Source: a virus (lineage: Duplodnaviria > Heunggongvirae > Uroviricota > Caudoviricetes). From it: DNA of 64,000 nt. The stretch's first letter is position 1. The number at the start of each line of letters is the position of its first letter. The translations under genes were made by a program, and so were the position numbers. The stretch is from IMG/VR virus record IMGVR_UViG_3300028833_002727; one strand, 5' to 3'. Below the pieces are notes generated by a model that saw only the letters and a program-made list of their open reading frames with translations, made no database searches and had not been told where the DNA came from. Below are positions 30,438 through 63,980 of this stretch, one piece after another.

Positions 30438-31238
30438 ATGGGAAAAGTTAAAAAAGACAGTTTAGGTGACAGAATGAAAAGATACGAGGGTGTAAGCAAA
30501 AACACTCTTGTATCTCGTATGCCAGTAATTCTTAGATTGGATGGCTGTCACTTCCACACATTTACAAAAGGTTTTCAAAAACCATTTGATGATGTTTTAA
30601 TGAAATCAATGAAAGACACTATGAAGTATCTTTGTGAGAACATTCAGGGCTGTGTATTTGGTTACACTCAATCTGATGAAATCACATTGGTATTAGTGGA
30701 TTATCAGAACATCAATTCATCACCGTGGTTTGATAACGAGGTACAAAAAATGTGCTCTGTTGCATCATCTATGGCTGGTATGTTCTTTGCACGTACGTTT
30801 GCATACAACGTACTAATGTCAGAACTCAATGAAGATGATAAACTATTCAAGGTTTATAACAATGCAATTAACCGTGGTGCTTACTTCGATTGTAGAGCAT
30901 TTAACGTTCCACAGAGCGATGTTTGTAACTGTGTTCTATGGCGCCAGCAAGACGCAACAAGAAACTCAATACAAGCATTAGCACAAGCTAACTTTTCTCA
31001 AAAACAACTACATGGCTTGAGTTGTGATAAACTTCAAGATAAACTGTTTGTTGAGAAAGGCATTAACTGGAACAATTTGTCAACTGACAAGAAACGTGGT
31101 TCTGCATGTATTAAGCAGAAGTATTCATTCACTAACCAACATGGGGAGGAAACAATCAGAATGCGTTGGATTGTTGATGATGATATGCCTATTCTCACAC
31201 AAGATAGGGATTATATTGAGAAACTAATTTATTTTTAA
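30438..31238 (+). CDS. Thg1-like protein (tRNA-His guanylyltransferase family 3'-5' nucleotidyltransferase)
   Basis: VILRLDGCHFHTF, KPFDDVLMKSM and FGYTQSDEITLVL align with the Thg1 signatures VVVRLDGRNFHRF, KPND...LM and YGQSDEYSFVF. Confidence 0.8.
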   Translation: MGKVKKDSLGDRMKRYEGVSKNTLVSRMPVILRLDGCHFHTFTKGFQKPFDDVLMKSMKDTMKYLCENIQGCVFGYTQSDEITLVLVDYQNINSSPWFDNEVQKMCSVASSMAGMFFARTFAYNVLMSELNEDDKLFKVYNNAINRGAYFDCRAFNVPQSDVCNCVLWRQQDATRNSIQALAQANFSQKQLHGLSCDKLQDKLFVEKGINWNNLSTDKKRGSACIKQKYSFTNQHGEETIRMRWIVDDDMPILTQDRDYIEKLIYF

Positions 31239-31259: not shown

Positions 31260-32765
31260 ATGGAATTAAGTTCAATTATTACTATTTGTGTGGTTGTAGT
31301 CTTATTATTGGTGCTCGTTGCACTATCATACGTTAAGACTAGTCCTAACCAAGCCTTGGTTATCTCTGGATGGCCTAAAAAGAAACCTAAGTTTTTAATC
31401 GGTACTGGTGGGCTTCGTATCCCAGGTTTGCAGAAAATTGACAAACTTTACCTTGGACAATTATCTGTAGATATTAAGACTGATACATCAGTTCCAACGT
31501 CTGACTTTATCAATGTAGATGTAGATGCAGTAGCGAAAGTTCGTATCGACCCTAATCACATTGATATTGCAGCAGCAAACTTCCTTGGTAAATCACGTGA
31601 AGACATTGCACGAGAAATTAGAGACTCATTGCAAGGTAACATGCGTGAAATCATTGGTACACAAGACTTACGTTCTTTGAACAATGATAGAGATGGCTTC
31701 TCTAACCAAATTCAAGAAAAGGCTGCGCCAGATATGGCGAAACTTGGTATTGAGATTCTTTCATGTAACATTCAATCAATTACCGATAAGGAAGGATTGA
31801 TTCACGCACTTGGTGCTGACAACACATGTAAGATTACTAAGGATGCTTCTATCAACAAAGCAAATGCGGAACGTGACGTTGCAATCGCTAAGGCTCAAGC
31901 AGAGAAAGAGGCTAATGATGCTCGTGTCGCTTCTCAAACACAAATTGCTGAAAAGAATACTGAATTAGCAGTTCGTCAGGCTGAATTGAAACGCCAGGCT
32001 GATACCCAAAAGGCTATTGCCGACGCTGCTTATGAGATTCAAAAGCAAGAACAAGCAAAGGATATTAACGTGAAGACTGTTGAGGCAGAAACTGCTCGTG
32101 AAATACGTGCGCAAGAGCAACAACGTCAAATTAACAAACTTACAGTTGAAGCACAAGTTGAGCGTGCAAAACAAGAGCAACTTTTGAGAGAGCAAGAGAT
32201 TGCCATCCAGGAGAAAACTCTTCAAGCACAAATTAACAAGAAAGCAGATGCTGAGAAGTATCAGAAAGAGGTTGATGCAGCAGCCGTATTGGAGCAACGC
32301 AAACGTGAAGCAGAGGCTAAACGTTATGAGGCTGAACAAGAGGCAGCAGCAGTAAAAGCAAAAGCAGAGGCTGATTTATTCGCACAACAACAAAAAGCGG
32401 CAGGTATTGAGGCTGTAGGTAAGGCAGAAGCGGCAGCAATTAAGGCTAAAGGTGAAGCCGAGGCAGCAGCAATGGATAAAAAGGCTGAAGCGTTCAAGAA
32501 GTATGGACCAGCCGCTCTTGCAGAAATGGCATTCAACAAACTTCCTGAAGTTGCACGTGAAGTTGCACAACCAATTTCATCAATTAAGGATGTACACGTA
32601 TACGGTACTACAGGCTGTGAGGCTTCTGGTGTCGCAGGTAACGTTCCAGTTTTGATGAAACAAACTATGGATGTAATGCAAGAGGCAACTGGTGTAGATT
32701 TGCGTCAAATCATGCAAGACAACTCAAAAGTTGTTGCAGCAGGTGCTGAGGTAAAACATAAATAA
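31260..32765 (+). CDS. SPFH/band-7 flotillin-like protein
   Basis: N-terminal TM helix, an SPFH core, then a long EA-rich coiled coil (AEAKRYEAEQEAAAVKAKAEA...). Confidence 0.75.
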   Translation: MELSSIITICVVVVLLLVLVALSYVKTSPNQALVISGWPKKKPKFLIGTGGLRIPGLQKIDKLYLGQLSVDIKTDTSVPTSDFINVDVDAVAKVRIDPNHIDIAAANFLGKSREDIAREIRDSLQGNMREIIGTQDLRSLNNDRDGFSNQIQEKAAPDMAKLGIEILSCNIQSITDKEGLIHALGADNTCKITKDASINKANAERDVAIAKAQAEKEANDARVASQTQIAEKNTELAVRQAELKRQADTQKAIADAAYEIQKQEQAKDINVKTVEAETAREIRAQEQQRQINKLTVEAQVERAKQEQLLREQEIAIQEKTLQAQINKKADAEKYQKEVDAAAVLEQRKREAEAKRYEAEQEAAAVKAKAEADLFAQQQKAAGIEAVGKAEAAAIKAKGEAEAAAMDKKAEAFKKYGPAALAEMAFNKLPEVAREVAQPISSIKDVHVYGTTGCEASGVAGNVPVLMKQTMDVMQEATGVDLRQIMQDNSKVVAAGAEVKHK

Positions 32766-32858: not shown

Positions 32859-33401
32859 ATGAGAAAGATAGGTTTAAATGATAATGTGTGTATTAGACTA
32901 ACAGAAGTTGGCGCTAATGAAATAAACAGAGTTCACAAAGAGTTAATCGAAAACGTATTGAGATTAGGCGGTGCTGATATATCCAGGATTTATAGAACCA
33001 ACTATGTACCAAATGAAATTGTTGAAATGCAATTAAGTGATGTGTTTAATACTTTCAAAAATTTGAATTTTAACACTGGTGGTGAAATACCATTTACCTT
33101 ACATATAGTAGATTACTATGAGGAGTTACCTCAACAAATCAAACTTGATTCAACTGGAGAGATATATGATTTGTTTATTGAATATAACCCTGGTGGTACT
33201 GAAGGTTTCTTTGTTGGATATGATAAACCAAAAAAATACCATATTTGTGAAGATTTCAAACCGCTTATAGTAAATGGAATTGAATTAAACGCTTATGGTT
33301 ACACATTCCATGAAGCATGTGAGAAATTATACAATATATTAAGAAATAGAGATTTATCATGGGAAGTAATTCACATTAGAAAACAATTAAATATTAGTTA
33401 G
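32859..33401 (+). CDS. Hypothetical protein
   Basis: ORF. Confidence 0.4.
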   Translation: MRKIGLNDNVCIRLTEVGANEINRVHKELIENVLRLGGADISRIYRTNYVPNEIVEMQLSDVFNTFKNLNFNTGGEIPFTLHIVDYYEELPQQIKLDSTGEIYDLFIEYNPGGTEGFFVGYDKPKKYHICEDFKPLIVNGIELNAYGYTFHEACEKLYNILRNRDLSWEVIHIRKQLNIS

Positions 33402-34658: not shown

Positions 34659-34959
34659 TATTTTTTAAATTATTCGTATATTTATTGTAGAAGAAATTAA
34701 AAAAGTAGACAAAAACACGTTACAACAAAATGATTAACAATTACACAAATATTATTAGTGCTGCCACATCTAGTTTATCAAACTTAGATGAACAACATTC
34801 ATGTGATCCAGCCAATAATGTCGCGTTGTAGGAGTTAATCGGAGATATAACTAAAAAAATAGACGAGTGTTTAGAAAGTGATTTTCCTCCTCCTACAATC
34901 AAAAGTAGCGTGGAGGTTTTTTAGTGCTTAAAAAGATTTTTTGCATTTTTTTCGTAAAA

Positions 34960-36540: not shown

Positions 36541-37122
36541 ATGGATAGTATTAGATTTTGTAAAAAACATGGCGAATGTGAACACGTGTTAAGTTCTGGT
36601 AAGTGGCGTTGTAAAAAATGCCGTAGTGAAGCGGTACAAAAACGTAGAGATAAGATTAAACTAATGTCTATTGAATATAAGGGTGGAAAATGTGAAATAT
36701 GCGGATATGACAAATGTATAGATGCATTAGAATTTCATCATTTAAATCCAAATGAAAAAGATTTTGGTATTGCCGAAAAAGGGTACACACGTTCATTTGA
36801 TAAAGTAAAAGAAGAGTTAGATAAATGTATTTTAGTTTGTGCGAATTGTCACAGAGAAATACACCATAAAGATAAAAAAAGAAATGTTTATGAATTGTTA
36901 AATGAAATTCACAATAAACAAGAAAAAGCAATTACGTCTAAAAAAGAAAGAAAACAAATACCAACCATAGATGAATTTATATCAGTATTTAAAATGTATT
37001 TAAACTTTACACAAGTTGGAAAATATTTTGGTGTCACAGATAATTCTGTGAGGAAATGGTGTAAAAAATATGGTTTACCAATCCATACTAAAGAATTGTG
37101 TAGGTATATACATAACATGTAA
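36541..37122 (+). CDS. HNH homing endonuclease with a C-terminal HTH-like module
   Basis: GKCEICGY...EFHHLNPNEKD...CANCHREIHH. Conserved leader AAGTATTTATTATAAAAG upstream. The stop overlaps the tRNA-Asn start. Confidence 0.75.
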   Translation: MDSIRFCKKHGECEHVLSSGKWRCKKCRSEAVQKRRDKIKLMSIEYKGGKCEICGYDKCIDALEFHHLNPNEKDFGIAEKGYTRSFDKVKEELDKCILVCANCHREIHHKDKKRNVYELLNEIHNKQEKAITSKKERKQIPTIDEFISVFKMYLNFTQVGKYFGVTDNSVRKWCKKYGLPIHTKELCRYIHNM

Positions 37123-37199
37123 CCGTAGTCAAGTGGCCAACGACAGCAGACTGTTAATCTGCCCCGAAAGGTTCCCAGGTTCGAATCCTGGCGGTTGCG
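37119..37199 (+). tRNA. tRNA-Asn(GUU), atypical 12-nt variable region
   Basis: Acceptor GTAACCG/CGGTTGC. Anticodon arm GCAGA-CTGTTAA-TCTGC. T-arm CCAGG-TTCGAAT-CCTGG. Confidence 0.55.
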
Positions 37200-37730
37200 C
37201 AAAAATCCAACACACCATTCCGTAAGTGGTTGAGGTTGATGTCTTTGTAGAGTATAGCGGTTACGGACGTGATTTTCTACATCTGGCTAAAGGCAATAAT
37301 ATAGTGAAACCTGGTTATCACGGCGCCTAGAGTGCGCAATTCGGGTTCAAATCCTGGCTATTGACAATAAGAGAGGCATACAGCAAAACAAAAAACTATT
37401 TTTTTAAAAACATTGAATTTGGGTTTCAAAAACGTTATAAAAAAGTGCCTCTTGTACTCAAGTATATATAGCCGCCACCCCCAAGTACAAGGGGCACACC
37501 AGACTTACATGGTTATCTCTTTTCCTGGAGAGATTGTAAAATAGGGCATTAGGAGCGAGTTAGTTGGATCAGAACTTATCTGATTAGAGAATTGCCCGCA
37601 GTCTGCGAACGTAAATAAGCAGTAATGGTAGATATGGGGAGCACTGAATTACGTAATAGATGTTTCATGAAACTATCTAAAAGTGACAAGCAAGCCACTT
37701 TAGCGTGTGATAAAACCGCACAGGGCGCCG

Positions 37731-38966
37731 ATAGTTGAGGGACAACAACTTTAAAAACCTCTATGGAGAAGTACAATTCATGGCAAAGTATAGACGGGGT
37801 TGAGGTGGTGCGCACTGTACTATAAAAAGAGTAAGGATAAGGAAAATGCGTAGCCTCACTTATAGTTGAAGGAAAACAACTTTAAAAAAGACAATAACCT
37901 ATGAATAATTAGGTGAGTTAAACCAGCTACACAAATGCTGTATGTGATAGTGATAAAATGCAGCCATGGAGGCTAACAAAAAGATTGCAAACTTTTTGAA
38001 TGCATTAATAACTTCCATGATTAAATAGTTGAAGGAAAACAACTTTAAAAACCAATATTAAACCACGAAAAAGACTAGAAGTTACAGCGTTGCTCCATTT
38101 TAGCCGAGGACGAAGCCGTGTGGGTCACTATTGAAATGAAGACTCTTTCCGGTGGGGAGAGTGATATTACTTTCACTAATGGAGGTGGGAGTGATAGGAT
38201 AGGCCAAAAACAGCACTATGTGGTTTATATTTAAAGTATTGCGCTGGTGATGAGAAGATACCAGTACCACAGGCCGTAGAAAGCAAAGAGAAATAATTGC
38301 GCAATAAAACTCTTGGGCGTACTACTGATAAGCGAAGATAAAGGTTAAAACTAGGCTGCTTCGGATACTTCAATATAGTTGAAGGAAAACAACTTAAATG
38401 AACCAAATTTAACTCCTATCGTCTAGTGGTTTAGGACATGCCGCGGTAAAGACATTGGTTCGAATCCAATTGGGAGTTCTTTGTGAAGAAAAACGGCTTA
38501 TAAAAAGCAACTTAGAAAAGTCGAGGAACTTCTGTTTATGCAATTTGACATTACGTCACCAGTCGATATTCGATGAGGCTCTGAATAGGTCGCACCTTAT
38601 AAGTAGGGGAATTGAGTACATAAACAGCGGGAGAAAGGTAAACTCGTGGGCTGGTTCGCTCTCCCAAATTTATAGTTGAAGGAAAACAACTCTAAAAACC
38701 CATACAGATGGAGTGAGAGATACTCGATTCGGTTGAAGGTGTCCTGCCGATAACAACGAGACATATCCTAAACATCGGGATAATTTTGATGTTCGGTTAG
38801 TTAGATACCGCTTGATAGGTGTACAATGTCAAGTTGCTAATCGTTAATAGGCCGACAGGTAATCTGTTCTTATTACGCGAGTTGCCTGAGTTCGAACACG
38901 CTTCTTCCGAACAGAACAGAAAAGTATCTTTTAATTATAGTTGAAGGAAACAACTTAAAAAATCCC
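37731..38966 (+). repeat. Six copies of the hairpin motif TAGTTGAAGGAAAACAACTTTAAAAA in an ORF-free structured region
   Basis: Copies at 37731-37759, 37861-37890, 38025-38053, 38375-38400, 38671-38700 and 38937-38966. The stem is AGTTG/CAACT with an 8-nt loop. Spacing is irregular (127-347 nt). Confidence 0.7.
38410..38477 (+). pseudogene. tRNA-like (Glu/Val-type body) with a disrupted anticodon arm
   Basis: Acceptor ACTCCTA/TGGGAGT. D-arm GTCTAGTGGTTTAGGAC. T-arm ATTGG-TTCGAAT-CCAAT. No foldable anticodon stem. Confidence 0.4.
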
Positions 38967-41489: not shown

Positions 41490-41564
41490 GGGGGATTAGC
41501 TCAGTCTGGCTAGAGCACCTGCTTTGCAAGCAGGGGGTCGTGGATTCGAATTCCACATCCTCCA
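41490..41564 (+). tRNA. tRNA-Ala(UGC)
   Basis: GGGGGAT...CCTGC-TTTGCAA-GCAGG...GTGGA-TTCGAAT-TCCAC-ATCCTCC-A. Confidence 0.85.
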
Positions 41565-41637
41565 CTTTTGTAAAAAAAAAGTTCGAAATAAGTATTTTTC
41601 CACACTAATGAAGTATTTATATATAAACAATAAAAAT

Positions 41638-42552
41638 ATGTATATAGATATTTCAACAGAAGAAAAAAAACAAGAATTTATACTACTTTTAAGTAGGTTT
41701 AAACGGAAAGGGGATATATTCAAATATTATCAAGTATCAGACAACACAAAAAATACAAGATATTTAAACAATATATTACAAACATTAGGTATAAACAATG
41801 AGTTTTTTTCCAAAAAAAGAAAAGAAAAGAAATTTTGTTTAAAGTGTGGTAAAGAATTAAAATATGGACAACATAAATTTTGTAGTAACAGTTGTTCGGC
41901 ATCTTACAACAATAAAAATAGAGAATATAGTGACGAAGTAAAACAAAAAATACGTGTTGGTGTTTTATTGTCTATGGGTATAACAGATATTGAAACATAT
42001 AGAAATACCAGCACAGAAAAAAAATGTGGGTACTGTGGTAGAATGTTCACTACAGCAAAAAAACATCAAAAATTTTGTTGTCAAGAATGTTCAAGAAGAA
42101 ACAGAAGATTACAAGAAATAAAAAATAAGGACGAAAGGGATATATATAAAAGTCAAACTAAATTCAATTTTAGTTTAAATGCTTATCCAGATGAGTTTGA
42201 TTTTTCCTTAATCAAAGAAAATGGTTGGTATCAAGCGACAAATCATGGTGATAACTTACGTGGCATTAGCAGAGATCATATGTTTTCAGTAGATGAAGGA
42301 TATAAACAAAATATAGACCCGTATTTAATTTCTCATCCAGCAAATTGTAAATTGATGAAACATGAAGACAACTTTAAAAAGAAAACAGAATGTTCAATAA
42401 CACTTAATGAACTAAAACAAAGAGTTAATGATTGGAATAAAAAATACGGAGTATATGAAAATAAAATAGATTATACAAAATTAGAAAAATTTAAGGAAAT
42501 GCAGGGTTCGAATCCCGCATCCTCCACAACTAATAATAATGTTAAACAATAA
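41638..42552 (+). CDS. HNH homing endonuclease with N-terminal CxxC zinc-finger repeats
   Basis: GISRDHMFSVDEGY...NCKLMKHEDN HNH motif. The start is placed after the conserved leader GAAGTATTTATATATAAAC. The 3' end of the ORF overlaps a degenerate copy of the tRNA-Ala 3' end. Confidence 0.7.
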   Translation: MYIDISTEEKKQEFILLLSRFKRKGDIFKYYQVSDNTKNTRYLNNILQTLGINNEFFSKKRKEKKFCLKCGKELKYGQHKFCSNSCSASYNNKNREYSDEVKQKIRVGVLLSMGITDIETYRNTSTEKKCGYCGRMFTTAKKHQKFCCQECSRRNRRLQEIKNKDERDIYKSQTKFNFSLNAYPDEFDFSLIKENGWYQATNHGDNLRGISRDHMFSVDEGYKQNIDPYLISHPANCKLMKHEDNFKKKTECSITLNELKQRVNDWNKKYGVYENKIDYTKLEKFKEMQGSNPASSTTNNNVKQ

Positions 42553-42682: not shown

Positions 42683-43090
42683 ATGGAGAATAAAACTATG
42701 AAAACTACAGAACAAATCAATCAAATTAAAACATTAAAACGCTTAATTGCGGAAATGGTAGCAGAACACAAGGCTACTAAATTAAACGAAGGACGCTACG
42801 GTAAATTCCGTAACGAAAGAGAACGCCTATTCATTGCATATACGGCTTACTATATGCTTCGTCATGGCATCGAAGACTTTGATGCATACATCGAGTCAGT
42901 AATGAACAAATTAAAACCAGAAAAACAAAATAAGGAGTATCCTTACCAGTTCTTCGGTGTTGAATTAGAGTCATTACCTCGTTGGAATAGATGGGGAAGC
43001 GTTAAGAATGCAGTAACCCATTGCATCGAATGCTTGGACAAAGTTATTGCTAAGGAGCAAGAAAATGCAGTTGAAGATGGAAACGAGTAA
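42683..43090 (+). CDS. Hypothetical protein
   Basis: ORF with a GGAG ribosome-binding site. Confidence 0.4.
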   Translation: MENKTMKTTEQINQIKTLKRLIAEMVAEHKATKLNEGRYGKFRNERERLFIAYTAYYMLRHGIEDFDAYIESVMNKLKPEKQNKEYPYQFFGVELESLPRWNRWGSVKNAVTHCIECLDKVIAKEQENAVEDGNE

Positions 43091-43376
43091 CCGCCTTTAC
43101 ATCCTCGTAAGTGAGGATTTAGCACCAATCTACGGCGCTGTACAGGGCGGGCACGCAATAGCGCAGTGGATGTTGGAACATTCCGACAATCTCTACTGGA
43201 AAAACGAAACTGTTGTGTATTTAAGTTGTAATGTTGAAAAGATGAAGTATCTACTTGAATGGGATGATATATCCATATTCAGAGAACCTGATCTTAATAA
43301 CAAACTTACAGCAATCGCAGTAGTTGGTAATCCAAGAAATGAACGAATGTTCAAGAAATTGAGACTTCTTCAATGA
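43065..43376 (+). CDS. Pth2-like peptidyl-tRNA hydrolase (start uncertain: 43047, 43065 or 43077)
   Basis: YILVSEDLAPIYGAVQGGHAIAQW resembles the PTH2 GKxAAQxxHAA core. The C-terminal KKLRLLQ resembles the PTH2 tail. Confidence 0.5.
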   Translation: MQLKMETSNRLYILVSEDLAPIYGAVQGGHAIAQWMLEHSDNLYWKNETVVYLSCNVEKMKYLLEWDDISIFREPDLNNKLTAIAVVGNPRNERMFKKLRLLQ

Positions 43377-43418
43377 ATGTCATAAAAAATTTGGGCGTTG
43401 AAATATACGCCTGAATAT

Positions 43419-43490
43419 GACCTATTAGTTCAACGATAGAACGGTACCCTCTAAAAGTATGCGTCGCGGGTTTGACTCCTGCATAGGTCA
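43419..43490 (+). tRNA. Putative amber-suppressor tRNA(CUA)
   Basis: Acceptor GACCTAT/ATAGGTC. D-stem GTTC/GAAC. Anticodon arm GTACC-CTCTAAA-AGTAT with U33 and A37 in place and a C31-A39 mismatch. T-arm GCGGG-TTTGACT-CCTGC. Confidence 0.45.
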
Positions 43491-43655
43491 CAAATGTTTA
43501 TATGTAGTAGTTACATGTTTAGAACGATCAACAAAACACAACATATGAAAGCATATGGGATAAAATGGATTCTGCTATTACACCGCAGTTCATAAGTATG
43601 TTTACCGTGGAGAATCGGGAATCGGTAATGTAACTATTAACTTGTAATCATAGTT

Positions 43656-43740
43656 GCCACATTGGGACAGTTGGTCGACTCCGCTTGACTTGTAATCAAG
43701 ATGCTTATGCGCGCCGTCGGTTCGAATCCGGCATGTGGCT
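43656..43740 (+). tRNA. tRNA with anticodon UGU (Thr) but an 85-nt type-II-like body (15-nt variable region)
   Basis: GCCACAT/ATGTGGC. CTTGA-CTTGTAA-TCAAG. GTCGG-TTCGAAT-CCGGC. Confidence 0.5.
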
Positions 43741-44461
43741 CTAAATAAGGTTGACGGTAGATGTCATTAAATCATTCTACAGAACTAAATTTACTGAGTT
43801 CAGTACTCCTCACGGGGAGTTCAAAGTAAAAAGGGGTGCCGAGTCCTCTTGAGCCTTATGACAGTTTACGTTCAATATTCAGAGGGGAGTAGCTTTGAGC
43901 GAAATTAAAACATCTGACCCTTATTTGGTAGTTGGACGTTATCCTATATTGTCCGTCTGATGTTCATGCGCAGAACAGTCATTCGTAAAAATCGTAATCG
44001 AACACCTCTTTAGTTCGAAATGAAGGGTTGTGGTAAATCTAATGCTTAGTGTTACGGATAAGATAGCAACGCAGTATGCTAACAAGACTATGCTGCTCAT
44101 TTTTTGGACGCGGTTGTTTTATGGTTAAAAAACATCCTAGCCTCTTCGGAGGTTGAACCAATAGTATCACCCAACTCGCAGAGTTAGGACGCTAAACCAG
44201 TGGCGCGCCAAAGATATTCGTCAGGCGCTGAGCCTTTCGCCAGAAGGCAGTGGTGATATTTTTAATAGTCGCTCATCCGACTTATTTTCCTGGTTTTGTA
44301 TAAATCAGGTGGTGGCCAAGCCGTGGGTTTTTTACCAAATACCCTGCATCGTTTTTTGGGTTGGAGTTAAGCATTGGCAAGATTGTGATGCTCATTAGTG
44401 AATTCGGTTAAAGTCCGAAAGCTTCATCCCCCTTACAAAACGGTGTGAACTAATAAATTTT

Positions 44462-44726: not shown

Positions 44727-44812
44727 TGCCTCTTGGTGTAACTGGCTAGCACGTCAGATTTTGATTCTGGAGGGTCCGAAAGGCATTGGGGGTTCGAATC
44801 CCTCAGAGGCAA
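44727..44812 (+). tRNA. tRNA with anticodon UUG (Gln) and a long 18-nt variable region (86 nt)
   Basis: TGCCTCT/AGAGGCA. GTGT-AACTGGCTA-GCAC. TCAGA-TTTTGAT-TCTGG. GGGGG-TTCGAAT-CCCTC. Confidence 0.5.
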
Positions 44813-45120
44813 CAATAGTAGAACGTATAGTTTAATGATAGCGCGCTAAAACATGTAGAACAACGGCGTAGTAAGTCGTAGGTATAGGTTTGATTCCTTT
44901 TGCGCTCTGAATCAGTCACTGATGTTGTCAAGACTCGTTCTTGGCTGGGATATAAAAGCATTACACTGGTAAAATTTTTCTGAAAAAAACACAAAATATC
45001 ATATAAAAGTTGTATATTTAACTTGAAGAGAGACTTACAGCACAATTTAAGATTTCCACAATCTAAACCAAACGTCTCTTGACAAAAAATAAATACAATC
45101 AAAAAAAACAATCACAAGTA

Positions 45121-50111: not shown

Positions 50112-50804
50112 ATGGGTATGAGAACAAACAAAACAAAAGAAGATTTTATAGAAGCAGCAAAACATAGTTTTAGTATTGCTGGAATGTGTAGATTTCTTGG
50201 TTGGAAACCATCTGGAAGTTATAATGTGATTAAGAAATATATCCGCGAATACGATATTGATACATCACATTTTACAGGAAAGAAATGCGTTGGAAGAGTT
50301 GCATCTAACAAATTGAGTGCAATTGAGTATTCGAAAAGTTATTATTGTAAAAGTGCAACTTTACTGAAAAAACTTATTGAAGAAGGTTTGAAAGAACACA
50401 AATGTGAAAAATGTGGTAGAACAGAGTGGGAAGGTGATAAAATACCACTAGAACTACATCATATTGATGGAAATCATTATAATAATGTTTTTGATAACCT
50501 AATCGCGTTATGTCCAAATTGTCATGCACAAACAAATGGATATAAGGGGAGGAAAAAAAGATTTTGTTCTGAGTGTGGAAAAGAGATAACAAGATATAGT
50601 AAAACAGGGCTATGTAATGTATGTAATCATACAATAAATCAACGAAAAGTTGATTGGCCTACAAAAGAAGAATTAGAATTGTTACTGGAAACAAATAGTA
50701 TGGAAGCAATAGGAAGGCTTTACAGTGTTTCTGGCACAACAGTTAAAAAATGGAAAAACAAATATAATATAAAAATGAATAAGCGTAACAAGAATATTAA
50801 GTAG
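50112..50804 (+). CDS. HNH homing endonuclease with a C-terminal HTH-like module
   Basis: HKCEKCGRTEWEG...LELHHIDGNHYNN...LCPNCHAQT. Conserved leader AGAAGTATTTATTATATATAAAA upstream. Confidence 0.8.
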   Translation: MGMRTNKTKEDFIEAAKHSFSIAGMCRFLGWKPSGSYNVIKKYIREYDIDTSHFTGKKCVGRVASNKLSAIEYSKSYYCKSATLLKKLIEEGLKEHKCEKCGRTEWEGDKIPLELHHIDGNHYNNVFDNLIALCPNCHAQTNGYKGRKKRFCSECGKEITRYSKTGLCNVCNHTINQRKVDWPTKEELELLLETNSMEAIGRLYSVSGTTVKKWKNKYNIKMNKRNKNIK

Positions 50805-51251: not shown

Positions 51252-51351
51252 GCCGAGATAGTGCAGTGGTTAGCATGTCGAATCAATACTGACGTGAAAA
51301 CGTTATAGGGGTTGCTCTTCGAAGACTGAGGTTCGATTCCTTGTTTTGGCT
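51252..51351 (+). ncRNA. tRNA-like element C (100 nt), same T-arm as element A
   Basis: GCCGAGA/TTTTGGC with two G-U pairs. GTGC-AGTGGTTA-GCAT. A 5-7 bp stem with the 9-nt loop AATCAATAC. A 31-nt variable region. TGAGG-TTCGATT-CCTTG. Confidence 0.35.
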
Positions 51352-51583: not shown

Positions 51584-51625
51584 ACCTTGAAAGATGAACA
51601 CAACCAAATCTTCCAAGGTTTTTTC
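51584..51625 (+). terminator. Putative rho-independent terminator
   Basis: ACCTTG...CAAGGT stem then TTTTTT. Confidence 0.4.
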
Positions 51626-51757
51626 ATTATATAGGAGTGTAGTACAATGGCTAGTATGGCGGTGTAATGTAATAAAAATCGAACTAAATCATATTTTTTT
51701 GGATAAAAATTATACTTTTTTTCGAACTAAGAAGTATTTATATAAAAACAAAAAAAT

Positions 51758-52696
51758 ATGGAAGAAAACGATTTTATTGAAAAACTACGTAAAAATGGAG
51801 ATAAATGCCGCAATATGTACGAATTATGCCTTAAACTTGGGATTACTAGTATTGGTGGTGAGACATATCGTGAAATTAGAAGTATTGCTGAAGAAAATAA
51901 TATTACTTTAGTTTTTAATGGTTTATCAAAAAAGATAACACAAAAAAATCAAGAAAAAAAACTTGAAGAATTATTGTGTGATGATAGTGTTATAACTAGT
52001 AATAAGTTGAAAATGAAAATAATTGAGAATGGGTTAAAGCCATATAGATGTGAATGCTGTGGAAATACTGAATGGAACGGAAAACCAATACCGCTTGAAT
52101 TACACCACATTAATGGAAAACATAATGACAATCGTATAGAAAACCTTCAATTACTATGTCCAAATTGTCATGCACAAACAGATAACTATTGTGGAAAAAA
52201 TACTGGTAATAAAAAGAAATTAAGAAAGATAGTAAAGGTTAACAAAACAACTGGTAATTTATCTTATGTTAATAAACAATATTTGATTAATCTATTATAT
52301 TTACATCCAATTAAAGAGGTTGCAAAACAGTTGGAAATTAATGAGTATCGTTTAAAATATTGGTTAAAGAAATTAGAAATACATGTATCAAATAAGTGGA
52401 GGGAAGATTTACATAAAAATAACCCTGAAATATTTGGAATATGTGAATATTGTGGAAAACGATTTATAAAAAAAACATTAGAACAAAAATTTTGTAATCA
52501 AGAATGTAGTAAATTGTCAACTAGAAAAATAGAGATAACAAAGGAAAAACTGATACATAGTTTAAAAGAAAACAAAAGTTTTGTACAAACAGGAAAGATG
52601 TTTGGTGTAAGTGATAAATGTGTTATTAAATGGTGTGCAAGATTTGGTATACCAAATAGAAAAAAGGAAATGATAGAATACATTAAACGTATATAA
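51758..52696 (+). CDS. HNH homing endonuclease with a C-terminal HTH-like module
   Basis: YRCECCGNTEWNG...LELHHINGKHNDN...LCPNCHAQT. Leader AAGAAGTATTTATATAAAAAC. tRNA-Trp follows 5 nt after the stop. Confidence 0.8.
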   Translation: MEENDFIEKLRKNGDKCRNMYELCLKLGITSIGGETYREIRSIAEENNITLVFNGLSKKITQKNQEKKLEELLCDDSVITSNKLKMKIIENGLKPYRCECCGNTEWNGKPIPLELHHINGKHNDNRIENLQLLCPNCHAQTDNYCGKNTGNKKKLRKIVKVNKTTGNLSYVNKQYLINLLYLHPIKEVAKQLEINEYRLKYWLKKLEIHVSNKWREDLHKNNPEIFGICEYCGKRFIKKTLEQKFCNQECSKLSTRKIEITKEKLIHSLKENKSFVQTGKMFGVSDKCVIKWCARFGIPNRKKEMIEYIKRI

Positions 52697-54564: not shown

Positions 54565-54650
54565 GCAGGTGTCGCCTAGTGGACGATGGCGCCGGATTTC
54601 CAATCCGGAGTGGCGAAAGCCCCACGAGAGTTCGAATCTCTTCACCTGCT
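54565..54650 (+). tRNA. tRNA with anticodon UCC (Gly codons) on a type-II body (3-bp D-stem, 17-nt variable arm)
   Basis: GCAGGTG/CACCTGC. GCC-TAGTGGACGAT-GGC. CCGGA-TTTCCAA-TCCGG. GAGAG-TTCGAAT-CTCTT. Confidence 0.5.
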
Positions 54651-54669
54651 CATAAAATTTAAAAATAAC

Positions 54670-56707: not shown

Positions 56708-56778
56708 AACATAATAGCTCAATGGTATAGAGCAATTTCGTATGAAATGATTGCGGGTTCGAATCCCGCCTTATGTTC
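56708..56778 (+). pseudogene. tRNA-like with an aberrant anticodon arm (4-nt loop)
   Basis: AACATAA/TTATGTT acceptor. GCTC-AATGGTATA-GAGC. GCGGG-TTCGAAT-CCCGC. No canonical anticodon loop. Confidence 0.35.
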
Positions 56779-59259: not shown

Positions 59260-59623
59260 ATGGGGCTGTTTGGCTTTGACTGGAAGATTGATACGATTGT
59301 AAGCATGTAGAGAATGAGAAATCTCTTTAAAAGACTTGACAACACAATAAATGGCGAAAGAACTTACGCTCTTGCTGCTTAATCGAAGCACAGTAGATTA
59401 ACTTTTTCAGATGCAAGGCATTTGAGCAAGACATCACTCCAAGCCGAGTCTGTGGGCTTAATGGATATAGTGGTGCTGGAATACATAGAATAGATGTTAC
59501 ATGCTGTGATGTAATGTTGAAGTTTTAGCAGATAAGGTGACTTTTGATGGTTTGAGTCGTATAGTCGCTCGAAAATCTAAATCAAACTAAACATGTAGAA
59601 AGCGAAAATATTACTTGCAACAC

Positions 59624-59650
59624 ACGGGTTCGACTCCCGTCAGCTCCACC
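59624..59650 (+). other. Isolated tRNA 3' fragment (T-arm plus acceptor 3' strand plus CC)
   Basis: ACGGG-TTCGACT-CCCGT-CAGCTCC-A-CC. No complementary 5' half in the window. Confidence 0.4.
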
Positions 59651-59655
59651 TACAT

Positions 59656-59729
59656 TCTCTCATAGCTCAACTGCATAGAGCACATTTCTCCTAAAAATGG
59701 GGTTCCGAGTTGAAGTCTCGGTGGGAGAG
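59656..59729 (+). tRNA. tRNA-Arg(CCU) with a non-standard T-loop TTGAAGT
   Basis: TCTCTCA/TGGGAGA. GCTC-AACTGCATA-GAGC. CATTT-CTCCTAA-AAATG. CCGAG-TTGAAGT-CTCGG. Confidence 0.6.
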
Positions 59730-59748
59730 CAAAAATTTTTATTTTATA

Positions 59749-60359
59749 TGGCAGAAAACAAAGATTGGACTGGCAATAGTCGTTCGGTATATGGAACAAT
59801 CGGAGCAAGCAATCATACAGAAGGTGAACGCGAGGAAAATGACTATTACGCAACATCGCCGATTGCGATGGAGTTGATATTAGAGAAAGAATCATTTAAT
59901 AAAGACATTTGGGAGTGTGCAGCAGGTGGAGGACACTTATCAAAGGTATTACGCAAACATGGACACAATGTTCGTTGCAGTGATATTATAGATAGAACTG
60001 GTGACACTGAAATACTTGACTTTTTGACGTACAAAGGTACATGGGATGGTGATGTTGTTACCAATCCGCCTTACAAATACGCTCAAGAGTTTGTTGAAAA
60101 GGCATTAGAGATAGTTCCAGATGGTAACAAAGTAGCAATGTATCTTAAACTTACTTTTCTGGAAGGTAAGAAGCGTCAAAAGATGTTCAAGAAATATCCA
60201 CCTAAATACGTTTATGTTGCCGCAGGGCGTATGGGGTGTGCCAAAAATGGTGAGTTTTCTGATATGGAACATGAATATGAAGCGGGCGCAGTGGCATTTG
60301 CCTGGTTTATATGGGAAAAAGGTTACAAAGGTGAGCCAATAATAAGGTGGTTTAATTAA
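59749..60359 (+). CDS. N6-adenine DNA methyltransferase (small; motif I before motif IV)
   Basis: ECAAGGGHL (motif I) and VVTNPPY (motif IV). The start is placed downstream of the tRNA overlap. Confidence 0.7.
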
Positions 60360-62861: not shown

Positions 62862-63980
62862 ATGGGAAAATTTACTTCATGGGATATAGGTGTTGTTTTC
62901 GGGGGTTATTGCCCAATGCATCAAGGGCACCTCGAAGCAATCCTTAAAGCCAAAAAAGAATGCCGTAACGTATTCGTTGTGGTATGTGGATACAATAACG
63001 AACCTCGTGCGAAAGAACTTGGTTTAACACACGAAGAACGTGTTAAATTGATAACTGATTACTTCAAAGGTGATGAGGTAATCCAGGTAATCAGTGTCAA
63101 TGATGACGAGTTACATATCGACCAGAGTGAATCCGACGCAAATTGGAAAATTTGGGTACGTGCGGTTCGTGAACAAATTTTTGAGTTTGGTGAAGGTGAC
63201 GATGATGTATTCTTCTATGTTGGAGAACAACGTTACTATGACGCAATGATGCGTATTTGGAAGGGTAGTTACAATATACCTATTCTTGTTGGATTGAATG
63301 AGAATGGTGAGCGTATCAACGATATTTCCGCTACTAAGTTGCGCCAACATCCACAGAAGTATTGGAACAAAATTCTTCCTCCGTTCAAGGAAAAATTGAC
63401 GAAACGTATCCTTATCACTGGTACAGCGTCTGAGGGTAAAACCACTATGGTTAAAGACTTGGCACGTTATTTCCAGTGTCCGTACACTACCGAGTATGGG
63501 CGTGACTATATGGAAGCACGCAACATGAAGGATCCTGACTTGGGTTTCGAGGATTTCCTAAATTTCATTGTAGGACAAAACCAGTATTACTATAATGCTC
63601 TGAAATCCCCTGCTAACAATGGTATTATTATCTCTGATACTGATAACCTTGTTACTCTTATGTATGCAAGAGCATATGTAGATAATCCAGAAATGAAAAT
63701 CAACGGTAAAGATTATCTTGCATTGTACAATTGTGTAGAGCAGTGCAAAGACAATATCACGTGGGATAAGATTTTCGTTCTTCCTCCAACAAAAGGATTT
63801 GTTGATGACGGTAGCCGTTATATGGGGCAATCAAGTCTGAAAGAGCGTCAAGCCAACTTTGATAAACTTATGAAGTTGATTGAAGATTTTGGTTTGATGG
63901 ACAAAGTAGAAGTCCTCTATAGTGATTTTTCACACAATTTCCAACACGTTAAAGAATATATTGAAAGTTTGTATGTTTGA
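62862..63980 (+). CDS. NadR-like bifunctional NMN adenylyltransferase / ribosylnicotinamide kinase, without the HTH
   Basis: N-terminal (H/T)xGH nucleotidyltransferase motif GYCPMHQGH. C-terminal P-loop ITGTASEGKTT. Confidence 0.7.
   Translation: MGKFTSWDIGVVFGGYCPMHQGHLEAILKAKKECRNVFVVVCGYNNEPRAKELGLTHEERVKLITDYFKGDEVIQVISVNDDELHIDQSESDANWKIWVRAVREQIFEFGEGDDDVFFYVGEQRYYDAMMRIWKGSYNIPILVGLNENGERINDISATKLRQHPQKYWNKILPPFKEKLTKRILITGTASEGKTTMVKDLARYFQCPYTTEYGRDYMEARNMKDPDLGFEDFLNFIVGQNQYYYNALKSPANNGIIISDTDNLVTLMYARAYVDNPEMKINGKDYLALYNCVEQCKDNITWDKIFVLPPTKGFVDDGSRYMGQSSLKERQANFDKLMKLIEDFGLMDKVEVLYSDFSHNFQHVKEYIESLYV

What the first reader, a model, noticed from the sequence alone, without database searches (positions are those of the whole stretch)
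43419..43490. Putative amber-suppressor tRNA(CUA), plus an upstream small ORF with in-frame TAG codons
- The tRNA fold is good except for a C31-A39 mismatch. U33, CUA at positions 34-36 and A37 are all in place.
- At 34731-34958 a small ORF (ATGATTAAC...) reads 33 codons, a TAG, 30 more codons, a TAG, then 9 codons to a TAA.
- The structural genes here are intact in the standard code, so no global TAG recoding is visible in this window.
The suppressor could serve genes elsewhere in the genome or manipulate host translation.
Basis: seen in the sequence. Interest (0 to 1): 0.5.

Follow-up and report, generated by a model that had tools for sequence, protein, structure and literature searches.

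The report
Phage amber-suppressor tRNA with hydrolase partner
The window holds a real stop-codon-reading (amber suppressor) tRNA in a roughly 380 kb phage that appears to use the normal genetic code, and across hundreds of large phages this kind of tRNA sits next to the same small peptidyl-tRNA-hydrolase-like gene, a pairing I could not find described.

Summary
The tRNA(CUA) at 43419-43490 is real. Rfam scores it 51.7 bits. ARAGORN calls it only below its default threshold. Strain alleles and distant orthologues keep the cloverleaf through compensatory changes and keep the anticodon.

It lies in a + strand array of about 40 tRNAs plus a tmRNA, in a huge phage whose contigs reach 379-389 kb. 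I found no TAG recoding in the 64 kb window or about 10 kb of flanks, tail-fibre and baseplate genes included.

The small ORF exists at 34730-34957, not 34731-34958, and its last piece is 10 codons. ORFs interrupted only by TAG are as common here as the TGA control, and its few substitutions are mostly non-synonymous. It is probably not a gene.

The new result is a linkage. The 99-aa ORF 42 nt upstream (43077-43376) has a Pth2 (peptidyl-tRNA hydrolase 2) fold. In relatives, the tRNA nearest to its homologue is a suppressor (CUA, UUA or UCA) in 72 of 78 IMG/VR loci, 65 of 76 JGI loci and 10 of 11 GTDB loci. This holds in both TAG-recoded Lak megaphages and standard-code phages. A small helical protein (42683-43090) usually precedes it.

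Most likely this is a functional suppression module. What it does in a standard-code phage is inferred, not shown.

The parts
43419..43490 (+). tRNA with anticodon CUA (amber suppressor). Stems of 7/4/5/5 bp, G1-C72, discriminator A73, C31/A39 unpaired, tertiary pair A19-U56, no encoded CCA.
   Evidence: Rfam 51.7 bits. ARAGORN -ps90. Covariation across 20 orthologues. 19-56 covaries in 51 of 51 unique suppressors. Strain alleles differ at 6 and 17 positions, all structure-preserving, and keep CUA.
43077..43376 (+). Protein B: 99-aa protein with a Pth2 (peptidyl-tRNA hydrolase 2) fold. Its TGA stop lies 42 nt before the tRNA.
   Evidence: AlphaFold2 pLDDT 93.9. In Foldseek against PDB, the only matches with E <= 0.01 are 14 chains of 7 entries: archaeal Pth2 and Pth2-like structural-genomics entries, human Bit1 and Atu0240, then a gap to E > 0.3. 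Viral matches are annotated peptidyl-tRNA hydrolase. PHROG 3668 'hydrolase' 1.6e-9. No Pfam, NCBIfam or PDB-sequence match. 8 synonymous and 0 non-synonymous codon changes against strain L101.
42683..43090 (+). Protein A: 135-aa helical protein of unknown function. It overlaps the start of protein B by 14 nt.
   Evidence: A homologous ORF directly precedes the Pth2-like gene in 77 of the 83 loci that have an upstream ORF, out of 84 examined. AlphaFold2 pLDDT 85.8 from only 8 sequences; no significant fold match. 26 synonymous and 7 non-synonymous codon changes against L101.
43394..43411 (.). Short G+C-rich hairpin between the protein B stop and the tRNA. Role unknown.
   Evidence: Pattern scan and the sequence itself. 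Not analysed further.
59262..59650 (+). Phage tmRNA (tag GERTYALAA), in the same array. A possible partner in clearing ribosomes that read through stops; this is inferred only.
   Evidence: ARAGORN. Rfam RF00023 114 bits.
34730..34957 (+). Probably a non-coding leader or promoter region at the head of the tRNA array, not a target gene.
32859..33401 (+). One of two credible TAG-terminated genes in the window. Read-through would add 7 residues.
50112..50804 (+). HNH endonuclease gene that ends TAG and is followed at once by TAA.

Best explanation
This is a functional amber-suppressor tRNA. It belongs to a conserved phage module made of a small helical protein (A), a Pth2-fold protein (B) and a suppressor tRNA.

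Proposed mechanism (inferred):
- After infection the tRNA is transcribed with the array, receives CCA and is charged by a host synthetase. Gln is most likely by analogy with recoded phages; Lys is the alternative.
- It then competes with release factor 1 at UAG codons.
- As far as can be seen this phage uses the standard code, so the tRNA causes UAG read-through rather than decoding a reassigned codon. That read-through acts on host messages and on the few phage genes ending in TAG. It also buffers amber mutations.
- Protein B, probably together with the phage tmRNA, is inferred to release or recycle the peptidyl-tRNAs and stalled ribosomes that suppression creates.
- This could explain why the partnership holds whichever stop codon the neighbouring tRNA reads.

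Shown: the tRNA, its selection for structure and for the anticodon, the fold of B, and the linkage.
Inferred: expression, charging, which messages are read through, and the activity of B.
For: The tRNA is real and under selection:
- Rfam 51.7 bits.
- Across 20 orthologues, 93% of cells are paired and 19 of 22 pairs change on both sides. The covariation score is 0.775, against 0.235 for shuffles and 0.085-0.16 for slid partners.
- The tertiary 19-56 pair covaries without exception: 41 G-C and 10 A-U.
- Within one phage species, strains whose protein B is identical carry tRNA alleles that differ at 6 or 17 of 72 positions. Every stem change preserves pairing and CUA is kept.

Linkage of protein B to a suppressor:
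- The tRNA nearest to the B homologue is a suppressor in 72 of 78 IMG/VR loci (62 CUA, 7 UUA, 3 UCA), although suppressors are only 82 of 836 tRNAs in those loci.
- This holds in 14 of 18 protein clusters at 70% identity, with 3 more mixed.
- It replicates in 65 of 76 JGI loci and 10 of 11 GTDB loci. In six of the GTDB loci the suppressor is the only tRNA present.

Fold of B: Pth2.

Standard code here:
- 97% coding density in 1-34000.
- No internal TAG in the called genes of the 161 kb and 379 kb contigs of this phage (6293 and 2349 codons in the fetched stretches). A Lak contig from the same collection has 56 in-frame TAGs in 5489 codons.

The module occurs in TAG-recoded relatives (Lak, L061), in relatives whose fetched loci show in-frame TGA (L028, L047, L056), and in standard-code relatives.

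Published context:
- Standard-code relatives of recoded phages acquire suppressors (10.1101/2021.08.26.457843).
- Jumbo phage XacN1 has two CUA suppressors with no identifiable targets (PMC5852040).
- PTH2 in jumbo phages has been proposed to act in ribosome rescue (PMC7824862).
Against: - There is no evidence of transcription, CCA addition, charging or suppression.
- ARAGORN misses the tRNA at its default threshold.
- The unpaired 31-39 position might weaken decoding.
- Only about 74 kb of a roughly 380 kb genome was readable, so a few recoded genes elsewhere cannot be excluded.
- Extensions after TAG stops (0 and 7 codons) are no shorter than after TAA or TGA (median 6-7), so the phage shows no visible adaptation to read-through.
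- Protein B is not recognised by Pfam PF01981 or by PDB sequence profiles, and its catalytic residues were not checked, so hydrolase activity is unproven.
- More distant homologues in XacN1, RAS14 and CC2 are not next to any annotated tRNA.
- The host is unknown.
Confidence: 0.5

Rival explanations
1. Sparse recoding. The tRNA decodes in-frame TAG codons in a limited set of genes (for example capsid or lysis genes) in the roughly 300 kb of this genome that lies outside the window.
For: [quoted passage not shown] Selection keeps CUA in this phage's strains, which implies a use for reading UAG. Only about 74 kb was examined.
Against: The tail-fibre and baseplate genes here, the class most recoded in Lak and crAss-like phages, have no internal TAG across more than 11,000 codons. 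The collection's gene caller can pick a TAG-sense model, yet it used the standard code for the 161 kb and 379 kb contigs of this phage and for the 277 kb and 214 kb relatives. No release factor gene was found in the window. The similar-sized Jug gut phages are reported to show no alternative code (PMC12880540), but membership of that group was not tested here.
Confidence: 0.25
2. The pair is kept together for a reason other than translation. For example, it may be a mobile cassette that travels as a unit through the homing-endonuclease-rich array, or the tRNA may act as a processing or stability signal for the A-B transcript.
For: The array is mosaic between strains, with HNH and DUF559 genes present or absent. 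In strain L102 the tRNA allele changes abruptly (17 of 72 positions) next to almost identical flanks: 2 of 300 differences in B and 1 of 41 in the spacer. That pattern points to cassette-like recombination.
Against: A processing signal would not need a stop-codon anticodon. Yet the neighbour is a suppressor in about 90% of loci, even though tRNA type (short or long variable arm), anticodon (CUA, UUA, UCA), side and distance all vary.
Confidence: 0.1
3. Relic. The tRNA is a decaying remnant of a recoded ancestor, or a pseudo-tRNA with no present function.
For: ARAGORN does not call it at default settings. It has a C31-A39 mismatch, a D loop without GG and a T loop reading UUUGACU. Several neighbours in the array are clearly aberrant tRNA-like sequences.
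Against: The odd D and T loops form a compensated A19-U56 pair that covaries perfectly across the family. The 31-39 mismatch is enriched in these suppressors: 21 of 52, against 26 of 557 other tRNAs. It stays a mismatch (C.A to C.C) while three adjacent pairs are swapped compensatorily. Anticodon, U33 and A37 are conserved.
Confidence: 0.07
4. The small ORF at 34730-34957 is a real gene whose two TAG codons are read by this tRNA.
For: Its codon-usage score of +0.26 per codon lies in the top 1.9% of non-coding windows. Both TAGs and the first 130 nt are conserved in all variants, including a different downstream context in L115. The region diverges less than its flanks in L101.
Against: TAG-only-interrupted ORFs are as frequent here as TGA-only ones. 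With 12 such ORFs, one score this high is expected about one time in five. Most observed substitutions change the amino acid (S/P, V/E/G, N/K, K/E) and only one synonymous change was seen. The only database 'homologues' are the same DNA translated with TAG as Q on contigs under 1.5 kb. It has no Pfam match. It sits in the A+T-rich spacer at the head of the tRNA array, so conservation could reflect a promoter or leader.
Confidence: 0.04
5. It is a pyrrolysine tRNA, as the ARAGORN label suggests.
For: ARAGORN prints tRNA-Pyl(cta).
Against: That label is only ARAGORN's name for a CUA anticodon. The sequence has a 5-bp anticodon stem, a 5-nt variable loop, G18 and U54-U55. From my own knowledge, tRNA-Pyl has a 6-bp anticodon stem, a 3-nt variable loop and lacks these loop bases. 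No PylS or PylBCD family appeared in any Pfam scan of window ORFs.
Confidence: 0.01

Closest known systems
Suppressor tRNAs of TAG-recoded (code 15) phages: Lak megaphages and crAss-like phages (PMC6784885; 10.1101/2021.08.26.457843; PMC9523058)
   Same: A phage-encoded tRNA that reads a stop codon, in a low-GC phage with TAA-dominated stops. Lak phages carry a homologue of the adjacent Pth2-fold gene (51-54% identity) with a suppressor tRNA beside it.
   Different: This phage shows no in-frame TAG in about 74 kb, structural genes included, and no release factor 2 gene in the window. The Lak tRNA next to the homologue has anticodon UUA, not CUA.
Suppressor tRNAs in standard-code jumbo phages, such as Xanthomonas phage XacN1 (two CUA) and Agrobacterium phage Atu_ph07 (UCA) (PMC5852040; PMC6102473)
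   Same: A large tRNA complement, the standard code and a suppressor with no identifiable target genes. Both phages also encode Pth2-type hydrolases.
   Different: In XacN1 the homologous domain is the C-terminal part of a 279-aa protein with no annotated tRNA within 3 kb. The tight gene-tRNA pairing seen here is not reported in those papers.
PTH2 of jumbo phages (Iyer et al. 2021, PMC7824862) and archaeal or eukaryotic Pth2 (2zv3, 3erj, 1xty, 1q7s)
   Same: The same fold, with TM-scores of 0.6-0.8. A proposed role in ribosome rescue.
   Different: The sequence is too diverged for Pfam PF01981 or a PDB sequence profile to detect. The protein is shorter, at 99 aa. That paper does not mention suppressor tRNAs.
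The 'code change module' of Jade phages: suppressor tRNA, tRNA synthetase and release factor (10.1101/2021.08.26.457843)
   Same: A suppressor tRNA clustered with protein genes that act on translation termination or charging.
   Different: The partners differ: a Pth2-fold protein and a small helical protein, with no synthetase or release factor. It is not next to a lysis cassette here, and it also occurs in standard-code phages.

Membership tests
Elongator tRNA (Rfam RF00005) | Full-length match to the covariance model above the gathering score | tested here: met
   51.7 bits against a gathering score of 29, model positions 1-71.
Elongator tRNA (Rfam RF00005) | Cloverleaf stems maintained by compensatory change in relatives | tested here: met
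   93.2% of cells paired and 19 of 22 pairs with changes on both sides. No shuffle out of 500 reaches the observed values, and slid controls score 0.085-0.16 against 0.775.
Elongator tRNA (Rfam RF00005) | Tertiary contacts for the L shape (U8, A14, G18, U54-A58, 19-56 pair) | tested here: met
   All are present in the sequence. The 19-56 pair is A-U here and covaries in 51 of 51 unique suppressors.
Elongator tRNA (Rfam RF00005) | Called by a standard tRNA finder at default settings | tested here: not met
   ARAGORN default finds nothing. It calls the tRNA at -ps90. tRNAscan-SE was not available.
Amber suppressor tRNA | Anticodon CUA at 34-36 in a 7-nt loop with U33 and a purine at 37 | tested here: met
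   The loop is C U C U A A A. 48 of 52 related suppressors have A37.
Amber suppressor tRNA | Anticodon conserved in orthologues | tested here: met
   CUA is kept in three strain alleles that differ at up to 17 positions, and in relatives whose protein B is 72% and 50% identical.
Amber suppressor tRNA | Aminoacylation and read-through of UAG in vivo | not testable with these tools
   Needs a reporter assay, tRNA-seq or proteomics.
TAG-recoded (code 15) phage genome | In-frame TAG in conserved genes, with coding density restored when TAG is read as sense | tested here: not met
   In the window, 1-34000 is 97% coding in the standard code and gains 0.7 percentage points with TAG as sense. The only long TAG-containing ORFs are antisense with negative codon scores. 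Lak loci rise from 0.42-0.55 to 0.80-0.89. Only about 74 kb of roughly 380 kb was examined.
TAG-recoded (code 15) phage genome | Phage release factor 2 gene | tested here: not met
   No release factor family appeared in Pfam scans of 43 window ORFs. The rest of the genome was not seen.
Pth2 peptidyl-tRNA hydrolase (Pfam PF01981) | Pth2 alpha/beta fold | tested here: met
   Model pLDDT 93.9. The only Foldseek PDB matches with E <= 0.01 are 2zv3, 3erj, 1wn2, 1rlk, 1q7s, 1xty and 2gax (E 4e-5 to 5e-3); the next hit has E 0.3. Matches in BFVD (predicted viral structures) are annotated peptidyl-tRNA hydrolase, with TM-scores up to 0.79.
Pth2 peptidyl-tRNA hydrolase (Pfam PF01981) | Sequence match to the family profile | tested here: not met
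   No PF01981 hit even at E <= 10. No NCBIfam hit. A profile built from 44 homologues finds no PDB sequence.
Pth2 peptidyl-tRNA hydrolase (Pfam PF01981) | Catalytic residues, and hydrolysis of peptidyl-tRNA | not tested
   No residue-level structural alignment was available. Family-invariant residues are W41, N43, E70 and T78, with near-invariant Q23-G-G-H26 and P71-D72. Whether they map onto the Pth2 active site is unknown.
tRNA-Pyl | Atypical architecture (6-bp anticodon stem, 3-nt variable loop) and pyl genes nearby | tested here: not met
   It has a 5-bp anticodon stem and a 5-nt variable loop. No Pyl family appeared in the Pfam scans. The defining features are from my own knowledge.
Suppressor tRNA with adjacent HDV-like theta ribozyme (PMC10879173) | HDV-like ribozyme next to the tRNA | tested here: inconclusive
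   An Rfam scan of 43350-43560 at E <= 1 returns only the tRNA. I do not know whether Rfam 15 holds a theta-ribozyme model.

The most novel reading that the evidence does not exclude
The helical protein A, the Pth2-fold protein B and the suppressor tRNA form a dedicated and widespread phage 'termination-override' module. In this reading, B is needed for suppression to work or to be tolerated, for instance by releasing peptidyl-suppressor-tRNA or rescuing ribosomes that read through stops. Standard-code huge phages would then deploy the module to reprogramme termination on host messages. The same module would be the pre-existing machinery from which TAG or TGA recoding repeatedly evolved, as in Lak phages.
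Probability: 0.3. Interest if true: 0.8.

Novelty: new variant of a known kind. Interest (0 to 1): 0.6.

Why it matters
Why phages that use the normal genetic code carry stop-codon suppressor tRNAs is an open question. How phages that recode TAG or TGA tolerate the switch is another. A protein partner that travels with suppressor tRNAs, whichever stop they read and whether or not the genome is recoded, gives both questions a concrete and testable handle. It consists of one 99-aa protein, one 135-aa protein and one tRNA, all of which can be expressed with an amber reporter.

If the Pth2-fold protein proves necessary for efficient or tolerable suppression, three things follow:
- It would help explain how recoding evolves.
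- It could improve detection of code-changing phages in metagenomes.
- It might offer a tool for engineered stop-codon suppression.

If the partnership turns out to be mere synteny, the finding reduces to one more suppressor tRNA in a jumbo-phage tRNA array, which is already known.

Tried and rejected
- DNA searches for the tRNA or its region in INPHARED (megablast and blastn) and IMG/VR (exact 41-mer) found nothing useful.
- A locus search with the nearby AAA_28 protein found no relatives.
- I looked for a paralogue in the array from which the suppressor could have arisen by an anticodon change. None is close. The best is tRNA-Arg(ACG) at 73% identity, which shares the A19-U56 pair. The amino-acid identity therefore remains unknown.
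- Homologues of the small ORF turned out to be only the same ORF. Contigs under 1.5 kb had been translated with TAG as Q by the collection's gene caller, while the DNA carries TAG. This is a database artefact, not evidence of a sense codon.
- Fold search for protein A gave no significant match.
- I tested whether A and B are fused in XacN1 or RAS14. hhalign finds no similarity between A and their N-terminal regions.
- I tested whether TAG-terminated genes have unusually close back-up stops. They do not: 0 to 98 codons, median 9, against a median of 7 after TAA.
- I looked for an HDV-like or theta ribozyme next to the tRNA. Rfam finds none.
- I tried to reach the rest of the genome. The look-up tools return at most 10 kb around proteins encoded in the window, so only about 6.4 kb upstream and 3.8 kb downstream were added.
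Full report
**1. The observation**

Rfam's tRNA model matches window 43419-43490 (+) from end to end at 51.7 bits. The gathering score is 29 and the E-value is 3e-8 for the whole window. ARAGORN at default settings lists 33 tRNAs and a tmRNA in the window but not this one.
- a perfect 7-bp acceptor stem, a 4-bp D stem and a 5-bp T stem;
- a 5-position anticodon stem with G27.U43 and unpaired C31/A39;
- the loop C-U-CUA-A-A.

'tRNA-Pyl' is only ARAGORN's label for a CUA anticodon.

The D loop (AACGAUA) lacks GG and the T loop is UUUGACU. Together these give A19-U56 in place of the usual G19-C56.

The small ORF starts at 34730, not 34731. It reads 33 codons, TAG, 30 codons, TAG, 10 codons, TAA.

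**2. Surroundings**

The window is phage DNA.
- Positions 1-20170 encode very large proteins. One has a Peptidase_S74 tail-fibre chaperone domain.
- A gp25 baseplate-wedge gene, ClpP and SSB lie just upstream of the window.
- From about 35 to 60 kb there is a + strand array of about 40 tRNAs and tRNA-like elements plus a tmRNA. It is interleaved with HNH and DUF559 endonuclease genes.
- After the array come a TonB-dependent receptor gene and NAD-salvage genes.

Nearly identical DNA occurs on contigs of 161 kb and 379 kb. The identical 99-aa protein is recorded on a contig of 388,829 bp. This is therefore a huge phage of roughly 380-390 kb.

The ENA assembly names (WILK20, STEW19, XIEF21, SHIW14) and the 'RUG' titles of two related records suggest rumen samples. 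That is my inference. The TonB-dependent receptor and the link to Prevotella Lak phages hint at a Bacteroidota host, which was not tested.

**3. Genetic code**

- Standard-code ORFs of at least 100 codons cover 97.1% of positions 1-34000. Reading TAG as sense raises this only to 97.8%.
- Every ORF that gains length across a TAG does so upstream of its real start or within a few codons of its end.
- The only ORFs of at least 250 codons with internal TAGs are antisense and have negative codon scores.
- Of 48 ORFs listed, 39 end in TAA, 6 in TGA and 3 in TAG. One of the TAG three (51594-51911) overlaps an HNH gene and is doubtful.

The public collection's gene caller can choose a TAG-sense model. 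It did so for Lak contigs, where 7 of 17 genes carry 56 in-frame TAGs. It also did so for some contigs under 1.5 kb. For the 161 kb and 379 kb contigs of this phage, and for the 277 kb and 214 kb relatives, it used the standard code with TAG as a stop. This is indirect evidence that the whole genome is not heavily recoded. I could not read the other roughly 300 kb.

**4. The small ORF**

- ORFs of at least 70 codons that start at ATG and are interrupted only by TAG number 6 on each strand of the array region. The same count for TGA is 5 and 7.
- The ORF's codon score of +0.26 per codon is in the top 1.9% of non-coding windows and the bottom 6% of gene windows. With 12 such ORFs this is not significant.
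- It has no Pfam match and no homologue in any fetched locus other than strains of the same phage.
- A database search returned five 'proteins' with Q at the TAG positions. The three whose DNA I fetched carry TAG at the first of those positions, so they are artefacts of gene calling with a TAG-as-Q model.
- Most substitutions among the variants change the amino acid (S/P, V/E/G, N/K, K/E), and only one synonymous change was seen.
- The stretch lies at the head of the array and is more conserved than its flanks. That fits a promoter or leader.

I rate it as probably not a gene.

**5. Is the tRNA under selection?**

Yes, on three lines of evidence.

First, strain alleles. Strains whose flanking genes are 93-98% identical, and whose 99-aa protein is identical, carry different alleles of the tRNA.
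- L101 differs at 6 positions: A2-U71 to G2-C71, A19-U56 to G19-C56, G27.U43 to A27-U43, and one loop base.
- L102 and four other contigs differ at 17 of 72 positions. Two acceptor pairs, three anticodon-stem pairs, one T-stem pair and the 19-56 pair are all exchanged compensatorily. The discriminator changes from A to G. Position 31-39 stays unpaired (C.A to C.C). The anticodon stays CUA.
- In L102 the neighbouring gene differs at 2 of 300 nt and the spacer at 1 of 41. The allele was therefore probably swapped by recombination.

Second, twenty orthologous suppressors from relatives fit the cloverleaf. 93.2% of cells are paired and 19 of 22 pairs change on both sides. This is far above the shuffled and slid controls.

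Third, the tertiary 19-56 pair is G-C in 41 and A-U in 10 of the 51 unique suppressors whose T loop could be parsed, out of 52 found. None is discordant.

The 31-39 position is unpaired in 21 of 52 suppressors, against 26 of 557 other tRNAs from the same loci (Fisher 1.5e-12; the sequences are not phylogenetically independent).

**6. The neighbour**

The ORF at 43077-43376 (99 aa) ends 42 nt before the tRNA.
- It has no Pfam, NCBIfam or PDB-sequence match. PHROG 3668 'hydrolase' matches at 1.6e-9.
- A model built from 44 homologues has pLDDT 93.9.
- Its only Foldseek matches in the PDB with E <= 0.01 are Pth2-family entries, then a gap to E > 0.3. They comprise archaeal Pth2 and Pth2-like structural-genomics proteins (MJ0051, AF2095, PH1539, TA0108, Sulfolobus Pth2), human Bit1/PTRH2 and Atu0240.
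- Viral matches are annotated peptidyl-tRNA hydrolase in Myrna, RaK2, VH7D, Atu_ph07 and giant viruses.
- Against strain L101 it shows 8 synonymous and 0 non-synonymous codon changes.

PTH2 in jumbo phages is already known and has been proposed to serve ribosome rescue (PMC7824862).

**7. The linkage**

Homologues of the 99-aa protein lie on huge-phage contigs. In each of the three lineages first fetched, a suppressor tRNA lies beside the gene:

| Lineage | Identity of the B homologue | Neighbouring suppressor |
|---|---|---|
| L012 | 72% | CUA, 31 nt downstream |
| L018 | 50% | CUA, about 470 nt downstream |
| Lak phages | 54% | UUA, about 500 nt upstream |

An IMG/VR scan found 299 relatives, and I examined the best 80 loci.
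- The tRNA nearest to the gene is a suppressor on the same strand in 72 of the 78 loci that have any tRNA (62 CUA, 7 UUA, 3 UCA).
- Suppressors are only 82 of 836 tRNAs in those loci.
- At 70% protein identity there are 18 clusters. In 14 the nearest tRNA is always a suppressor, and 3 more are mixed.

The pattern repeats in JGI metagenome loci, which partly overlap IMG/VR. There it holds in 65 of 76 loci, and in 48 of the 54 with at least 600 nt on each side and at least one tRNA. It also holds in 10 of 11 GTDB contigs from varied habitats, where the protein is only 30-52% identical. In six of those the CUA tRNA is the only tRNA in the locus.

The suppressors themselves are diverse. They have short or long variable arms and three different anticodons, lie upstream or downstream, and sit 24 to about 1,900 nt away. 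What is conserved is 'a suppressor', not one particular tRNA gene.

A second protein, 135 aa in the window (42683-43090), overlaps the start of the Pth2-like gene. A homologue directly precedes that gene in 77 of the 83 loci that have an upstream ORF. It is helical and has no fold match.

More distant homologues (30-37% identity) in XacN1, RAS14 and Aeromonas CC2 are not beside any annotated tRNA. The linkage therefore belongs to one subfamily.

Five full-text searches found no paper linking PTH2 or peptidyl-tRNA hydrolase to suppressor tRNAs in phages.

**8. Code of the relatives**

- Lak loci are clearly TAG-recoded. Coding coverage rises from 0.42-0.55 to 0.80-0.89, and there are 56 in-frame TAGs in 5489 codons.
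- L061 has a 971-codon ORF with 27 TAGs.
- Loci with both UCA and CUA suppressors (L028, L047, L056) have long ORFs containing TGA.
- Most CUA loci show no long TAG-containing ORFs. This includes this phage and its 72% and 50% relatives.

The module is therefore found in TAG-recoded and standard-code phages, and in phages whose fetched loci show in-frame TGA.

**9. Interpretation**

Shown:
- a real tRNA with a CUA anticodon, under selection for both its structure and its anticodon;
- a Pth2-fold gene and a small helical-protein gene that accompany suppressor tRNAs across hundreds of phage contigs;
- no TAG recoding in the 74 kb I could read.

Inferred:
- The tRNA is expressed and charged. The amino acid is unknown. 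Gln is expected from published recoded phages. From my own knowledge of E. coli work, engineered CUA tRNAs are often charged with Gln or Lys.
- The tRNA competes with release factor 1.
- The Pth2-fold protein, perhaps with the phage tmRNA at 59262-59650, clears the peptidyl-tRNA and stalled-ribosome by-products of read-through.

This fits the published route to recoding: low GC, rare TAG stops, acquisition of a suppressor, then in-frame stops (10.1101/2021.08.26.457843). This phage would sit at the 'suppressor acquired, not recoded' stage or have returned to it. Because CUA is retained through allele replacement, I think the suppressor has a present function rather than being a neutral intermediate.

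The main rival is a small set of recoded genes elsewhere in the genome.

**10. Verdict**

The tRNA is a new member of a known kind: suppressor tRNAs in jumbo-phage tRNA arrays. The small ORF is most likely chance. The added value is the conserved partnership of protein A, the Pth2-fold protein and a suppressor tRNA. As far as I could search, this partnership is undescribed, and it makes the function of such suppressors experimentally approachable.

Noticed in passing
window 43656-43741, 44727-44813, 54565-54651, 37119-37200: tRNA-Thr(UGU), tRNA-Gln(UUG), tRNA-Gly(UCC) and tRNA-Asn(GUU) are 82-87 nt long. ARAGORN draws a long variable stem-loop, in two cases closed by a GAAA-containing loop, for the first three; the Asn tRNA was not drawn. 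In bacteria this architecture is normally limited to Leu, Ser and Tyr tRNAs.
   Followed up: partly
window 56709-56777, 38412-38478, 51252-51351, 44821-44908: Rfam reports tRNA hits here that ARAGORN misses or cannot assign. One has a tetraloop in place of the anticodon loop. One carries a 28-nt insertion at the anticodon loop. Two are otherwise aberrant.
   Followed up: no
window 41490-41565 and 42497-42530: The 3' half of tRNA-Ala is repeated just before the end of a 342-aa zinc-ribbon ORF (41524-42552) that begins inside the intact tRNA-Ala. This looks like the footprint of a mobile endonuclease gene inserted at the tRNA.
   Followed up: no
relatives L012-L100; window 43449/43457 (positions 31/39 of the tRNA): Position 31-39 at the base of the anticodon stem is unpaired (C.A, A.C or C.C) in 40% of the phage suppressor tRNAs, against 5% of other tRNAs in the same loci. 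It stays unpaired through an allele replacement.
   Followed up: partly
L102, L103, L106, L107, L109 against window 43419-43490: Within one phage species the suppressor tRNA is a divergence hotspot. It differs at 17 of 72 positions, while the adjacent gene differs at 2 of 300. This suggests cassette-like replacement of the tRNA allele.
   Followed up: partly
L012 9542-10282 and L013 1873-2613: In the 72%-identical relative, protein A ends in TAG and is in frame with the Pth2-like gene 15 nt downstream. Amber suppression would therefore make an A-B fusion. Only 4 of the 77 A-family ORFs end in TAG.
   Followed up: partly
window 60457-62580 and 62862-63980; L001 3483-6442: The phage carries a TonB-dependent receptor gene and an NAD-salvage set: a NadR-like NMN adenylyltransferase/kinase, a PnuC transporter, a nucleoside deoxyribosyltransferase and a radical SAM protein.
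   Followed up: no
window 30438-31238 and 31260-32765: A Thg1-type tRNA-His guanylyltransferase and an SPFH/flotillin protein lie just upstream of the tRNA array.
   Followed up: no
window 59697-60359: This ORF matches only the C-terminal half (positions 183-380 of 458) of PHROG 799 DNA methyltransferase. It begins inside tRNA-Arg(CCU) at 59656-59730, so it may be a truncated or split gene.
   Followed up: no
L113-L115 (public contigs under 1.5 kb); proteins P0128-P0132: The public protein collection holds translations of the small ORF with TAG read as Q, because the gene caller chose a TAG-sense model for these short contigs. For long contigs of the same phage it used the standard code. Database 'homologues' can therefore be the same stop-containing DNA.
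   Followed up: yes
L197, L198, L203 (GTDB records ONIZ01000001.1, JAOZSQ010000001.1, JBBACR010000001.1): Contigs of 410-427 kb that carry the Pth2-like gene are filed as Firmicutes, Thermoplasmatota and Pacearchaeota MAGs, and two of them have a CUA suppressor beside it. They are probably mis-binned huge phages.
   Followed up: no
window 16000-17100: The 1606-aa tail-fibre gene contains diverged internal repeats. The ENA strain aligns to several registers there at 80-88% identity. The region also has a local GC rise to 40%.
   Followed up: no
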